Assembly: GCA_951406725.2 (NCBI GenBank)
Contig: OX597827.1
Coordinates: forward strand, 54,560,001-54,624,000
Length of the DNA stretch: 64,000 nt
From: Octopus vulgaris
Taxonomy: Eukaryota
Reading direction: 5' to 3'
The notes under the pieces are model-generated. The model ran no database searches, was not told where the DNA came from, and saw only the letters and a list, made by a program, of their open reading frames with translations. The first letter of the stretch is position 1, and every line of letters begins with the position of its first letter. A program made the position numbers and the translations under genes. This document shows positions 31,301 to 57,279 of the stretch, piece after piece.

Positions 31301-31345
31301 TCTGTGCTGATGAAGGGAAATAACCTGGAAATCGTGATACACAGA
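31301..31345 (+). ncRNA. Minimal type-I hammerhead ribozyme motif
   Basis: TCTGTG-CTGATGA-AGG(GAAATAA)CCT-G-GAAA-TCGTGA-TA-CACAGA: 6-bp stem I, core CUGAUGA/GAAA, AUC/GAU stem III, AUA triplet. One extra G before GAAA. Confidence 0.6.
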
Positions 31346-32379
31346 TATTGTTTTGAGCTGAGTTGGGGTGCTAGATTCCCTTGTTCGAAAATATAAGGAC
31401 ACAGATCATGTCATATAGCCAGCTGAAGACAATGTTTCCTGGTGCTAAATTACAGCAACATTCGTCCTAAACCAGGATTGCCATGTTATGTTGGCAAACA
31501 ATCTTTACTACAAAGTACTGTTGCTGAATATCTCACATTGCAAGATTTAAAAATAGTAATTTTCTTATAGGAAAGATGTTCATACAATACAATTAATGGA
31601 AACTTTCAGATGAAGAAGCTTGATATGACACATACAGAAAGTCTTTGTTAGAAACTCGACATTTGGGCTAATTTTTACAAATTAAATACATACATATTCA
31701 GGTATCATAATGTGTCTTCTTCTTCAGTCATTCCAGGTTGAATATGCAGCTGTGAAAACAGAATGTTAGGAGAGTGTATGCCAACTTGACCCAAGATACT
31801 CTGAATTTTTGGTGCTCAACTTGGCTGTATTAAATGGTTAATATTTCCTTCAAACTTTGCTTTTGCTATATTCATTCAAATTCCAAAGAATCCCTCTCAA
31901 CACATGGCTATGATGCTCTCCCACTACTTACAATCAGAAATGAACATATTGTCAGCCACTAAGAGACATGATCAAGTGGTAAAGGTCAAGCAACTGACAA
32001 GCAAATCTGTGGTATTGAGCAGAATATTTGCTATGATGATATCTCTGCTTTAGCAACTCAGCACTGAATCTGTCTGAAATGTAATGGGATATAGGTCAAT
32101 TTTAAAACATTGATGTCCACATCACAAATGCAAAGTTTGAAGGCAATAGTAGTCATTTCCTTTGATTTCTAGATAGAAGCAAATAAGAAATAATACTTAC
32201 AGATCATAAACAAAAGAAAAAAATTTATTACTACATAATTAGAATAAATTCCAAGAAGTCAACCAGTATGTTGACAACGTTTTTGCCATGTGACTTGTTT
32301 GACAGTTTCATTTATTCACTAGAAAAATATTATCCACCTCAACATTTTCCCACCCTCTCAACTATAATAATATGAAGGT

Positions 32380-32626
32380 TACAGGGATGTAAACACACCA
32401 GCATCGGTTGTCAAGCAATGCTAGGGGGACAAACACACACACAAACACACACATACATATATACGATAGGCTTCTTTCAGCTTCCGTCTACCAAATCCAC
32501 TCACAAGGCATTAGTCGGCCCGGGGCTATAGCAGAAGACATTTGCCCAAGATGCCACGCAGTGGGACTGAACCTGGAACCATGTGGTTGGTTAGCAAGCT
32601 ACTTACCACACAGCCACTCCTGCGCC
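32380..32626 (-). mobile_element. SINE family A, 5' portion
   Basis: Similarity to other copies. Confidence 0.83.
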
Positions 32627-33552
32627 TAATGTGTACACTTTTTTAAAAAGTTCTTTGAAAGAGATTTATTTTTATTTCTAACAAGGTGAGTAGTAGTAGT
32701 AGTAGTAGTAGTAGTAGTAGTAGTAGTAGTAGTAGTAGCAGCAGCAGCAGCAGCACTTTTTGGATTTTTTCTATGTTGTTAAATGTATTTTAACTGAGGA
32801 AAACACGCATACACACATGCACATTTTCACACACAAACTCACACACATAATACATTTTTCACACACACACACACACACATATACATTTCTCACACACACT
32901 CATACACATACACATTTTCACACGCATTCACAGATTCACCCATTTTGTTTTTAAAAAAGGAGAATGGCTTAATTTTATTTCCCTTTTAGCATGGTTAACG
33001 CCAGTTTTGGCTTCCATTTTCCAAAGCCTAAAGTAATGTTTGTAGTAGTAGTAGTAGTAATATTAAGTTAGAAGTTTCTTTTTCTTTTCTGTTTTTTTTT
33101 TAAAAAAAAGATGCTGTTAAATATATTTAAACTTAGCTTCAGGAAAAAAAAAAAATCTTGTACAGAAACCAAATCTGCAAGTAATATACAAAACAGTATA
33201 TATAAGCAGTAATGTACAAAAAATTTTGACTTAATTATTTTTCCATTTTAATAATCAAAATTAAAATTACAAAAATATTTAATTAATACAGTTATCTTTT
33301 GCTGATGTGAGGTAAATTTTTATAAGTTCAAATTAAAAAAAAAAATATGATTACCTACAAATGAGATGTGAATATGATAACCTACTTACCTAGCAACCTA
33401 CTTTACATATGTGCAAACTTACAAAGAGGCTTCTACCTGGCTGCTAAATCATTATGAAATAGCAGCCAAATCTCATCCCAAATCATACTCTAATGTCTGA
33501 AATAAAGAAGGACTAGATAATATGGTTTGTGAGCTAAATAAGTTTGTATGAG

Positions 33553-33890
33553 CAGGCATGGCTGCATGGTAAGAAGCTTGCTTCGCAACCATATGGTTCT
33601 GGGTTCAGTCCCACTGTGGGGCACCTTGGGCCTTGGGCAAGTGGATTTGGTAGATGGAAACTGAAAAGACACCCATCATATGTATATTTATAAGTGTGTG
33701 TGTGTGTGTGTTTGTCCCCACCACCACTTGACATTTAGTTTTGGTGTGTTTATGTCCCTATGACTTAGCAGTTTGGCCAAAGAAATTAATAAAATAAGTA
33801 CCAGGCCTAAAAATAGAAAAATACTGGGGTCATTTCACTCAACTAAAAATCCTTCAAGGTGGTGGCCCAGCATGGCTGCAAAAGATAAAC
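33553..33890 (+). mobile_element. SINE family A
   Basis: Similarity to other copies. Confidence 0.78.
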
Positions 33891-34040
33891 ACTAAAAGAT
33901 ACCTTGGGGAGAAGAAAAGGCTGAAGTTTCTGAAGAAGCTGGCCTTTCATATGATTCCTTCTATTTTCAACAGTATATGAACTTATCCAAACTTACAAGA
34001 CTCATGGTATAATCAAAGACTACAATGAACCGAATAATTG

Positions 34041-34253
34041 TTAACCTTTTGTTACCACATTTCTCTTGAAATACACTGCTTTCATTTCAGTTAATTTGAG
34101 AAATTATAAAGAATTTAGTAAAATACTGGTCATTATTAAGCTGGTGTTTGGGCTATGAATTAACAAGGCTTTAATTTTGGATTACTTTAAAGCAAGAAGA
34201 TTGTACCATAGAACAAGGGACAGTTTCAGGCAGGTTGGTATCAGAAGGGTTTA
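34041..34253. mobile_element. TTAA-type MITE, family of 45591-45809
   Basis: ttaacctttt...gaagggttta termini; internal aaagaatttagtaaaata shared with that copy. Confidence 0.65.
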
Positions 34254-34255
34254 TA

Positions 34256-55080: not shown

Positions 55081-55903
55081 ACAACAAGCTTCTTTCAGTT
55101 TCTGTCTACCAAATCCACTTACATCACAAGGTTTTGATTGTCACAGGGCTCCAGCAATAGACACTTACCTAAGGTACTTCACAGTGGGACTGAACCCAGA
55201 ACCATGTGGCTAGGAAGTAAACTTCTTACCTCACACCATGCATGCACCTACACAGCCACACCTGTACCTATTTAGCTATGCTTTCATCTGATTACTGAAT
55301 AGAAAATTAATTCTGTCTGAGTGTCTCCAGTGCAAATAAAGAAGAGATGCCATGACTTCAGATTACTCTGTCAAATATAATGCTTATTTATTCACATTGT
55401 CTTGAATTAACCATGCTTAATTTTGCAGCTTTGAGATTTCAATGATATGATTCTTTAGTTTAAAAATGACCTTGTAGAGTAAACTAGAGAAGCTGGATTT
55501 AGGTGGTTTGAATATAAAACAGATAGAATATTTTGGCCGGATATGGCTGGTATGAATGTTAAAGGGTTAAGTTCTTGAACTGATCACTGAGAATATTTTG
55601 CATTGAACAGAAGGACTGCAGTTCAAATTGCTCATTAAACTGTGAAATGCCCCCAAACCAGAGGATATTGAAACACTGCATGATAGAAGGTAATCTCAAC
55701 TATATAGTCTGTAGTCACATTATGTTTACAAAAGTCAAACTTGTCATATATGAAAGGTTACACATCAGGAGATAACACAGGTGCTTATATATATATATAT
55801 ATATATATATATATATATACACATACAGACAGACAGGGTCAGTCGCCATGATAGATTGTTAGCCACGACACATTTTTTTTTCTCTCTTGTTTTTTCTGTG
55901 TCC

Positions 55904-55939
55904 CTTTCTGTAGAAGAGCGTAGGCTCGAAACGTAAAAG
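55904..55939 (+). ncRNA. Minimal hammerhead-like motif in a Penelope-type terminal repeat
   Basis: CTTT-CTGTAGA-A-GAGC(GTAG)GCTC-GAAAC-GTA-AAAG. Core position A6 is U. Confidence 0.6.
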
Positions 55940-56164
55940 ACTTTTTCTATTCCTGAGCATTATACTAATACATCTCTTTGTTTTGTACACCACCTGTCTT
56001 CGTCTTTTGTTTTTTTCGTAAACTCTCCTTATATATATATATATATATATATATATATATAAAGTTAATCCAAACATGAAAACACAAAGAGAAAACACAA
56101 CAACACGAGGATGTGGAACAAATATAGTATTATTGGTTGCTCAGGAAGGAATGGAAGAAGGAGG

Positions 56165-56199
56165 GTTTTACATTTCGAGCGGAGCTCTTCATCAGAAAC
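56165..56199 (-). ncRNA. Minimal type-I hammerhead motif in a Penelope-type terminal repeat
   Basis: GTTT-CTGATGA-A-GAGC(TCC)GCTC-GAAAT-GTA-AAAC. C to T at the CpG of the palindromic stem III. Confidence 0.68.
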
Positions 56200-56657
56200 A
56201 TAGGAAAAGGAAAGATCCAGAGAAGGGAAGACGGGGGAAAAAAAAACGCCAACAGTACACACGAGGTCACATTATATATATATATACACATACACAAACA
56301 CATCCAATGTCATCAGTGGAGTTAGTGTCAAAAGTTGTGCCATCTGCTGCTGGACAGAAATTCCATTTTGGAGAGATGTAGGAGGGTGTAGCTGGTGTTG
56401 GTGGGATTGTTGACCAAATTCTGAGCAACATTTATCACAAAAAATTTTAAAACAAAATCAAAATAGGCTAAGTAGTCACCCAAGACTCTGCGGTAGAAAA
56501 GCTCTCAAACTCCTTTGTTTACATAGAGTTTATAAAGACATGATGCACTACAAATATTTGTACAGCATCCTACCTGCAAGGTACCAGTGCATGATGAGTA
56601 GAAATCATCACCATGAATAAAGAGACTTGTAATTTCCATTTCCTTTCCTTTATGTCT

Positions 56658-57200
56658 TTATATATACATACATATATATATATATATATATATATATATA
56701 TATATATATATATATGTATGTATGTATGTATGTATATATATATACATACATACATACATGTATCTATATATATATACATACATACATGTATCTATGTATA
56801 TATACATACATACATACATACATACGTGCATCTATGTATATATACATACATACATACATGTATCTCTGTATATATACATACATACATATATATATATATA
56901 TATATATATATATATATATATATATATATATATATATATATATATGTATATATCTATATATATCTATATATATATATACTATATATATATATACATATAT
57001 ATATGTATATATCTATATATATCTATATATATATATATATATAAATACATATATATATACATATATATATGATATATATATATATATATATATATATATA
57101 TATATATATATATATATATATATATATATATATATATATATATATATATATATATATATATATATATATATATATATATATATATATATATATGTATATA
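56658..57200. repeat. Long (TA)n/(TACA)n microsatellite
   Basis: Direct reading. Confidence 0.97.
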
Positions 57201-57239
57201 GTAAGGAGAGACACAAATAAGAAAGAAGAAAACAAAAGA

Positions 57240-57279
57240 CCACTGATGTGGTCACAGGAGTGTGACGAAAGAACTCTGG
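57240..57279 (+). ncRNA. Hammerhead-like motif with a variant core
   Basis: CCA-CTGATGT-G-GTCACA(GGAG)TGTGAC-GAAA-GAAC-TC-TGG: perfect 6-bp stem II, 3-bp stem I, CUC triplet. A9 is U. Confidence 0.55.

What the first reader, a model, noticed from the sequence alone, without database searches (positions are those of the whole stretch)
31301..57279. Five or more hammerhead motifs from several distinct repeat families in one window
Motifs at 31301 (+), 46924 (-), 55904 (+), 56165 (-) and 57240 (+), plus decayed ones at 53198-53228 (-) and about 19971 (+). Apart from the related 55904/56165 pair they share only the catalytic core and differ in their helices, yet each of the five closes stem I. 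Most lie within about 150 bp of a (TA)n run. Inference: a diversified, high-copy population of ribozyme-bearing microsatellite-targeting retroelements, which could cut intronic pre-mRNA when in sense orientation.
Basis: partly seen in the sequence, partly recalled or inferred. Interest (0 to 1): 0.72.

Follow-up and report, generated by a model that had tools for sequence, protein, structure and literature searches.

The report
Minimal hammerheads in microsatellite-flanked animal repeats
Five hammerhead-shaped (predicted self-cutting RNA) motifs sit in this stretch of repeat-rich animal DNA, one inside a very highly repeated 210-base element, and they are likely leftover or derived ends of Penelope-type jumping genes, an already described pattern, with most copies predicted to cut RNA poorly or not at all.

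Summary
The five type I hammerhead motifs are at the stated coordinates and each closes stem I (6, 6, 4, 4, 3 bp). Strict descriptors beat shuffles (3 vs 0.24, 0/150; 4 vs 0.08, 0/1000); a loose one does not (5 vs 3.2, 32/150). Two of the five have core substitutions (55908 A6U, 57243 A9U). 53228 is a plausible decayed copy; 19971 is the centre of a 149-nt palindrome, not a ribozyme. The motifs show the marks of Penelope-like-element minimal hammerheads: short stem I, extra base after A9 (clear in three), palindromic stem III; four lie 94-178 nt 5' of a microsatellite. The 210-nt element around 56195 is very high copy (11,062 contigs laid in one run; depth about 10^5 times the flank) and its relatives keep the ACGT palindrome; a third carry U4C. 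Copy number was tested for this family only. No Penelope ORF and no host exon were detected, so the link to Penelope elements is inferred, and intron cutting is unsupported. HHR-bearing, (TA)n-targeting Penelope-like elements are already published for Octopus. New member of a known kind.

The parts
31301..31345 (+). Type I hammerhead motif: intact core, stem I 6 bp, helix II 3 bp with an unpaired base on the 3' side (no G10.1-C11.1 pair), stem III ATCGTGAT (palindrome but for one CpG-type change), predicted cleavage after 31339. Not near a microsatellite; copy number untested.
   Evidence: 1 of 1000 shuffles
46924..47012 (-). Type I hammerhead motif: core CTGAAGA, stem I 6 bp, 58-nt helix II region folding as a long hairpin with a damaged base and U-U at the junction, perfect palindromic stem III ACGATCGT, predicted cleavage after 46930
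   Evidence: 0 of 1000 shuffles; U-U junction layout as in Hydra-clade HHR table
46697..46810 (.). (TA)n/(GATA)n microsatellite, 119 nt 3' of the 47006 cleavage site
47050..48560 (-). AT-rich stretch 5' of the 47006 motif ending in an inverted duplication (arms within 48105-48269 and 48421-48560). By eye it resembles a decayed Penelope RT, but every test was negative; listed as an unconfirmed lead.
   Evidence: inverted arms 90-100% complementary; negative:
53198..53228 (-). Possible decayed hammerhead: intact core CTGAAGA, weak helix II with U-U junction, stem III ACTCAAGT, no stem I
   Evidence: 78 of 1000 shuffles: not significant alone
55836..56029 (+). About 195-nt element between (TA)17 (55786-55819) and (TA)16 (56030-56061); 5' edge approximate; distant relative of the 56062-56272 element
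55904..55939 (+). Minimal hammerhead with A6-to-U core change, extra base after A9, helix II 4 bp, stem III ACGT, stem I 4 bp; predicted cleavage after 55935, 94 nt from the 3' (TA)n
   Evidence: (11 of 1000)
56030..56061 (.). (TA)16 shared as 3' end by the two tail-to-tail elements
56062..56272 (-). About 210-nt very high-copy element between (TA)16 and (TA)7 (56273-56286)
   Evidence: 11,062, 6,840, 3,336 and 2,909 contigs laid in four runs; depth drops to single-contig level beyond 56283
56165..56199 (-). Minimal hammerhead: intact core, extra base after A9, helix II 4 bp, stem III ATGT in this copy (ACGT in 95-98% of the laid depth), stem I 4 bp; predicted cleavage after 56169, 107 nt from the 3' (TA)n
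   Evidence: (2 of 1000)
57240..57279 (+). Hammerhead motif with A9-to-U change, extra base, helix II 6 bp, stem III AGAACT, stem I 3 bp, in a roughly 255-nt island between TA runs (56659-57200 and about 57455-57471); a competing hairpin over the core is the predicted minimum-energy fold
   Evidence: (2 of 1000)
19897..20045 (.). Not part of the hammerhead set.

Best explanation
The motifs are minimal type I hammerheads in at least four unrelated sequence contexts, one of them a very high-copy 210-nt repeat, and they are likely the 3' ends (pseudo-LTRs) of truncated Penelope-like retroelements or short non-autonomous derivatives that a Penelope RT/GIY-YIG protein would have copied into microsatellites. 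Shown: the motifs, their palindromic or near-palindromic stem III, their position 94-178 nt 5' of a microsatellite (four of five), the high copy number and intact family-level ribozyme of the 56195 element. Inferred from published work: an element RNA is transcribed, two ribozymes pair through the stem III palindrome and cleave as a dimer to release (perhaps circularise) the RNA, and reverse transcription primed at a nick in (TA)n inserts the 3' end. Inferred: most genomic copies then decay (CpG loss in stem III, core substitutions), and the copies in this window would be inactive or very slow because none has a matching same-strand partner nearby.
For: Anatomy matches Cervera and De la Pena 2014 (PMC4209133): stem I 4-5 bp, base between 9 and 10.1, G10.1-C11.1, palindromic 15.2-16.2, many families per genome, mostly single motifs, and pairs 100-700 bp apart on opposite strands (as 55908/56195, 287 nt apart). 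Craig et al. 2021 (PMC8557442): Hydra-clade elements, including Hydra-1_Obim of Octopus bimaculoides, insert in (TA)n and carry a hammerhead about 100-200 nt from the 3' end, many with the same CUGA(U/A)GA-U...U-GAA junction as 47006 and 53228; element depth 1.0-3.8 million vs 21-32 in the single-contig flank (run X2); no change at 10% or more listed at G5, A6, G8, A9, G12, A13, A14, stem II or the 5' strand of stem I; ACGT palindrome in 95-98%. Locus L154 shows the full layout in another animal-like contig: minimal hammerhead, 55 nt, (TA)n, then a Hydra-type RT ORF. Shuffle tests.
Against: No Penelope RT or GIY-YIG was detected next to any motif: Pfam on 215 of 265 filtered ORFs and 30 read-through frames, homology searches, Hydra-clade profile from 88 proteins (best E 3; no better than controls; other clades were not available as profiles). 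None of 8 short window motifs occurs in the Craig et al. supplement. Copy number was tested for 1 of 5 motifs. 31307 is 1.4 kb from any (TA)n. The loose descriptor is not above chance. Rfam gives no hammerhead match. No cleavage, strand or locus-specific expression was measured.
Confidence: 0.78

Rival explanations
1. The short elements are monomers of non-LTR retrozymes: tandem 200-400 nt repeats expressed as self-cleaved circles, with dispersed solo copies.
For: Unit size (about 195-255 nt) and fixed ends of the 56195 element fit (loose ends at 56244 continue along the window's own next letters up to the TA run); monomers are dispersed in Xenopus and retrozymes are proposed to derive from pLTRs (bioRxiv 10.64898/2026.07.22.740005), so this rival overlaps the best explanation.
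Against: No tandem array holds any motif; the 5 joints listed include no head-to-tail return; retrozyme hammerheads are mostly canonical and active as monomers (PMC7229834), whereas 55908 and 56195 are minimal.
Confidence: 0.12
2. The copies are active in place and cut host pre-mRNA when transcribed in sense, or 31307 is a domesticated single-copy intronic ribozyme like the amniote ones.
For: 31307 and 47006 have intact cores, 6-bp stem I and a 2-bp stem III with a 4-nt loop that can form as a monomer; family RNA may be abundant enough for pairing in trans (family contigs present in run X14, an RNA guess); 31307 is not next to (TA)n.
Against: No host exon found; 31307 lacks the 10.1-11.1 pair and has a CpG-type change in stem III, 47006 has a damaged helix II base, 55908 and 57243 have core changes (an A6C variant gave under 0.1 per min, PMC3088659); no same-strand complementary stem III pair in the window; single minimal motif inactive in vitro.
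Confidence: 0.06
3. The motifs are chance matches in AT-rich DNA.
For: Loose descriptor gives 5 vs 3.2 expected; true for 19971 and possible for 53228; no Rfam match.
Against: Strict classes 0 of 150 and 0 of 1000 shuffles; the 56195 family keeps core and stems across thousands of contigs while this copy differs at CpG sites; a diverged relative keeps the same motif.
Confidence: 0.04

Closest known systems
Minimal type I hammerheads of metazoan Penelope-like elements (Cervera and De la Pena 2014, PMC4209133)
   Same: Short stem I, extra base after A9, G10.1-C11.1 (55908, 56195, 57243), palindromic minimal stem III, several families per genome, mostly solo, close opposite-strand pairs
   Different: No linked ORF found here; one family is far more abundant than the 2,000-9,000 motifs per genome they report, if the depth ratio is near the true copy number; A6U, A9U and a family-level U4C variant were not in the parts of that paper that I read
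Hydra-clade PLEs, including Hydra-1_Obim (Craig et al. 2021, PMC8557442)
   Same: (TA)n target, hammerhead about 100-200 nt from the 3' end, U-U junction at helix II and longer near-palindromic stem III (47006, 53228)
   Different: The window's motifs are different sequences (0 of 8 short motifs found in the supplement); a Hydra-clade protein profile finds nothing in the window
Non-LTR retrozymes of animals (PMC7229834; bioRxiv 10.64898/2026.07.22.740005)
   Same: Non-coding 200-400 nt units with a type I hammerhead, high copy, dispersed monomers
   Different: No tandem array here; hammerheads are minimal rather than canonical; circles not shown
Conserved intronic hammerheads of amniotes (C10orf118, RECK; PMC3088659 passages)
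   Same: Type I motif in non-coding animal DNA; 31307 stands alone
   Different: Those are conserved, monomer-active and low copy; 31307 shows signs of decay and no host gene or conservation was shown

Membership tests
Minimal type I hammerhead (PLE type) | Core CUGANGA ... GAAA ... UH | tested here: met
   Intact in 31307, 47006, 56195; one substitution each in 55908 and 57243; family of 56195 intact except U4C in 29-41% of depth
Minimal type I hammerhead (PLE type) | Stem I closes the motif | tested here: met
   6, 6, 4, 4, 3 Watson-Crick pairs; absent in 53228 and 19971
Minimal type I hammerhead (PLE type) | Extra base after A9 and G10.1-C11.1 | tested here: met
   55908, 56195, 57243; 47006 and 53228 have the U-U junction of the Hydra-clade table; 31307 does not fit cleanly
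Minimal type I hammerhead (PLE type) | Palindromic short stem III | tested here: met
   Perfect in 47006 and 55908; one change in 31307, 56195, 57243, 53228; ACGT in 95-98% of 56195 relatives
Minimal type I hammerhead (PLE type) | Self-cleavage as a dimer | not testable with these tools
   Only contigs were available; no assay
Penelope-like element (autonomous or truncated) | Penelope-type RT and GIY-YIG ORF 5' of the hammerhead | tested here: inconclusive
   Not detected; only a Hydra-clade profile was available, and solo copies are expected to lack it; not filed as a proven member
Penelope-like element (autonomous or truncated) | Hammerhead near the 3' end, microsatellite target | tested here: met
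   94, 107, 119, 178 nt to a 3' microsatellite in 4 of 5; not met for 31307
Penelope-like element (autonomous or truncated) | Interspersed multi-copy family | tested here: met
   56195 element only; other four not tested
Penelope-like element (autonomous or truncated) | Partial tandem pLTRs or inverted 5'-truncated copy | tested here: inconclusive
   No direct-repeat pLTR pair in the window; an inverted duplication lies 1.1-1.5 kb 5' of 47006 but its link to the motif is unproven
Non-LTR retrozyme | Head-to-tail tandem units each with a hammerhead | tested here: not met
   No such array; no head-to-tail joint among 5 listed (contigs show presence, not absence)
Non-LTR retrozyme | Expressed monomeric circular RNA | not testable with these tools
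   No raw RNA reads listed
Canonical type I hammerhead (Rfam models) | Match to an Rfam hammerhead covariance model | tested here: not met
   No hammerhead row at E up to 10 in four targeted scans
Conserved intronic hammerhead | Sense orientation in a host intron, conserved above flanks | not tested
   No genome held; no exon identified

The most novel reading that the evidence does not exclude
The 55908/56195 elements are a fixed-length, solo, SINE-like class of Penelope-derived ribozyme elements that reached tens of thousands of copies or more, with large subfamilies that amplified on a crippled core (U4C in about a third of the 56195 family; perhaps A6U in the sister family). Their abundant RNAs would act as half-ribozymes that pair in trans through ACGT and cut sense copies embedded in pre-mRNAs genome-wide, making this genome the natural test of whether Penelope hammerheads are needed for transposition or cost the host transcripts.
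Probability: 0.1. Interest if true: 0.65.

Novelty: new member of a known kind. Interest (0 to 1): 0.27.

Why it matters
If the best explanation holds, this is the ordinary debris of Penelope-type elements, here at unusually high density and in families I could not find described. It matters mainly as a resource: the function of Penelope hammerheads is still open (Craig et al. note they may simply parasitise the elements), and a very large family split into U4 and C4 subfamilies, with run-to-run differences at the cleavage base (C17 in 33% of depth in one organism, 3-7% in the other three runs), would let one test whether catalytic competence tracks copy number, age and intronic strand bias.

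Tried and rejected
No whole genome was held, so the genome-wide scan, family clustering and intronic strand test were not run. 19971 rejected (palindrome). Rfam: no hammerhead. Penelope ORF remnant at 47050-48330(-), seen by eye with recalled RT motifs: 0 hits in Pfam, word search (128 candidates), exhaustive phmmer, PDB (best E 0.78, unrelated), Hydra-clade HMM, hhalign no better than 18 control frames, 349 of 1192 scored shuffles as good; a language-model search was not possible for a read-through protein. Similar idea for 31362-31682(+): 0 hits. Pattern scans for the 55908/56195 families: 0 in metagenome and viral contigs. Generic hammerhead patterns in viral contigs gave 5 and 87 loci; the 5 were phage coding DNA, the 87 were not examined. 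No RNA holder was listed by the run search. Run X14 (RNA is a guess) has no cover on 56284-56523; this says nothing on expression of the locus. The window's LINE ORF2 is not in the protein collection by exact match, so the organism stays unverified. Earlier-scan look-ups by place and sequence returned nothing. Lunse et al. 2017 was not held.
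Full report
Setting. The window is 35.8% G+C, microsatellite-rich animal DNA with LINE, mariner and LTR-element remnants. I take it to be octopus-like from recalled repeat families; no call verified the organism (one search found no exact protein match; one search gives only coded organisms A-D). No whole genome was held.

Observation. Stem I is 6, 6, 4, 4 and 3 Watson-Crick pairs. Three cores are intact (31307+, 47006-, 56195-); 55908+ has A6 to U and 57243+ has A9 to U. 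Against 150 local dinucleotide shuffles the perfect-core class gave 3 vs 0.24 (0 of 150), the class with one mismatch and helix II of 3 or more gave 4 vs 1.44 (10 of 150), and the loosest class holding all five gave 5 vs 3.2 (32 of 150; 24 of 150 global). With Watson-Crick stems only and a near-palindromic stem III, 4 motifs were seen vs 0.079 (0 of 1000); per-motif classes were reached in 1, 0, 11, 2 and 2 of 1000 shuffles for 31307, 47006, 55908, 56195 and 57243. The classes were set after seeing the motifs and overstate significance. 53228- has an intact core and stem III ACTCAAGT but no stem I (78 of 1000). 19971+ lies in the loop of a 149-nt palindrome (z -8.45) and is rejected. Minimum-energy folds do not give the hammerhead shape and none beats shuffles clearly (z between -1.8 and +0.2). 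Rfam found no hammerhead in four targeted scans nor among the 150 of 191 rows shown for the whole window.

Context. Three of five motifs lie within 150 nt of (TA)5 or longer, against 12% of positions (p 0.015). Measured from the predicted cleavage site, a microsatellite follows 94, 107, 119 and 178 nt downstream of 55908, 56195, 47006 and 57243; 31307 has none within 1.3 kb. 55908 and 56195 sit in two elements of about 195 and 210 nt, tail to tail on one (TA)16; they are related in the ribozyme (0 of 500 shuffles) and the 3' flank (1-2 of 500) but not detectably in the 5' flank (97 of 500); the other 14 of 15 pairs of 3' flanks are unrelated.

Copy number. One stretch could be laid: 56064-56650, at 80% likeness, on contigs of four runs. 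11,062, 6,840, 3,336 and 2,909 contigs were laid. In run X2 summed depth was 1.0-3.8 million over 56084-56243 and 21-32 in the single-contig flank bins; ratios at the ribozyme are about 79,000-126,000 (X2), 336,000 (X1) and 92,000 (X6). The tool warns that this is no copy number. My inference: overlapping short contigs can inflate it up to about 31-fold, so the family has at least some thousands of copies and possibly 10^5. Depth falls at the (TA)7 at 56273, and loose ends at 56244 follow the window's own next letters to that run, which suggests a shared 5' edge. Depth-weighted differences: the ACGT palindrome in 95-98% (this copy has lost the CpG), C at N7 in 81-94%, U4 to C in 29-41%, U17 in 41-93% and C17 in 3-33%. 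No change of 10% or more was listed at the other core positions, helix II or the 5' strand of stem I. The five joints listed are skips or a strand change, none head-to-tail. Run X14, guessed to be RNA, holds family contigs; strand, level and locus cannot be told.

Search for the protein partner. Pfam on 215 of 265 filtered ORFs of 55 aa or more (50 left out: antisense to the LINE, microsatellite or SINE frames) and on 30 read-through frames of five regions found no Penelope domain and no host exon. The AT-rich stretch 5' of 47006 ends in an inverted duplication and resembles Penelope RT motifs by eye (recalled motifs), but searches were all negative; only a Hydra-clade profile (88 of the 120 proteins) was at hand. 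A generic minimal-hammerhead pattern in metagenomes gave 107 loci (about 1,100 estimated); 44 of 111 matches close a stem I of 3 or more pairs, 1 of 107 loci carries a Hydra-type ORF (L154), and 2 of 110 matches have (TA)n within 200 nt downstream. So solo, partly decayed motifs are the usual state, and the TA link points to the microsatellite-targeting clades. L154 shows motif, 55 nt, (TA)n, then the ORF.

Mechanism. Shown: motif anatomy, position, one family's abundance and intact family-level ribozyme. From the literature: such motifs sit in the pseudo-LTRs of Penelope-like elements, a single one from Schistosoma showed no detectable cleavage and dimers showed low cleavage (PMC4209133), dimers form through stem III (PMC6765202), and Hydra, Neptune and Naiad elements favour microsatellites (PMC8557442). 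Inferred: element RNA is cut by a ribozyme dimer, reverse transcribed at a nick in (TA)n, and short 3' pieces or short derivatives accumulate and decay. For cutting of host RNA, same-strand motifs in the window have stem III strands of different length or with four mismatches, so a partner would have to come in trans. An A6C variant cleaved at under 0.1 per min and U4C is said to lower activity considerably while permitting viroid infectivity (PMC3088659); A6U and A9U were not mentioned in that text.

Known or new. Craig et al. list Hydra-1_Obim from Octopus bimaculoides with a (TA)n target and a hammerhead at nt 2403 of 2507, so hammerhead-bearing, TA-targeting elements in octopus are in print. 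An O. vulgaris annotation counts 31 recently active Penelope-like families and does not mention ribozymes in its main text (PMC13282606; its supplement was listed, not read). None of 8 short words from the window's motifs occurs in the Craig supplement. Searches showed no paper on these families; Repbase/Dfam libraries, supplements of PMC4209133 and of the bioRxiv preprint, and subscription papers were not seen and may hold them. It works like a Penelope pseudo-LTR hammerhead; membership in a Penelope clade is not proven; it fails the tandem test for retrozymes.

What I saw of each paper: PMC4209133 parts 1-2 of 4; PMC8557442 passages, section 11, supplement searches and part 2 of 59; bioRxiv 10.64898/2026.07.22.740005 parts 1-2 of 5; PMC13282606 part 1 of 3 and passages; PMC8967140, PMC6765202, PMC3088659 and PMC7229834 passages only; Lunse et al. 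2017 only as cited. Hammerhead numbering and the N-U-H rule are recalled.

Verdict. Observation partly confirmed, interpretation partly supported, new member of a known kind, interest 0.27. The bolder reading (a huge solo family with crippled-core subfamilies cutting transcripts in trans) is not excluded: probability 0.1, interest 0.65.

Noticed in passing
window 3199-6282 (-), with 6294-6947 (-) upstream: Uninterrupted 1027-codon frame with APE endonuclease and RT (Pfam E 4e-12 and 2e-30), preceded by a frame with two Cys/His-rich repeats: a probably young, near full-length LINE.
   Followed up: partly
window 19897-20045: 149-nt imperfect palindrome, MITE-like, folding z -8.45.
   Followed up: partly
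window 48105-48269 and 48421-48560: Inverted duplication, arms 90-100% complementary, at the end of an AT-rich 1.5-kb stretch; origin unexplained.
   Followed up: partly
window 15798-15879 (-): tRNA-Ser(GCT)-like gene found by ARAGORN and Rfam (45 bits), next to a SINE-like repeat.
   Followed up: no
window 42271-43128: Four head-to-tail copies of a 216-nt unit that also occurs dispersed (17753, 26052, 37237, 41390); no hammerhead in it.
   Followed up: no
window 20689-21288 (+); 7100-8670 (-); 58814-59206 (-): Broken mariner transposase (Pfam HTH_48, Transposase_1); broken LTR-element-like remnant (DUF7083); a LINE-like 3' fragment recognised by eye only.
   Followed up: no
window 56524-56623: A second, lower-copy repeat in the flank (depth up to 877 in X2 and 3,508 in X1 vs 30 and 7 single-contig).
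   Followed up: no
window 56169: The cleavage base differs between runs: C17 in 33% of depth in run X2 but 3-7% in X1, X6 and X14, hinting at a lineage- or sample-specific subfamily.
   Followed up: no
L154 (Ga0126336_10046345), minus strand, 604-2760: Hydra-clade Penelope-like RT ORF preceded by a minimal hammerhead and a (TA)n run; 3,610 relatives at E up to 1e-5 among 7,995 scored candidates.
   Followed up: partly
L098, L107, L116, L141, L144, L173, L174, L183, L187, L188, L196: One recurring minimal-hammerhead-like family without a closing stem I, in four loci twice about 300 nt apart on the same strand.
   Followed up: no
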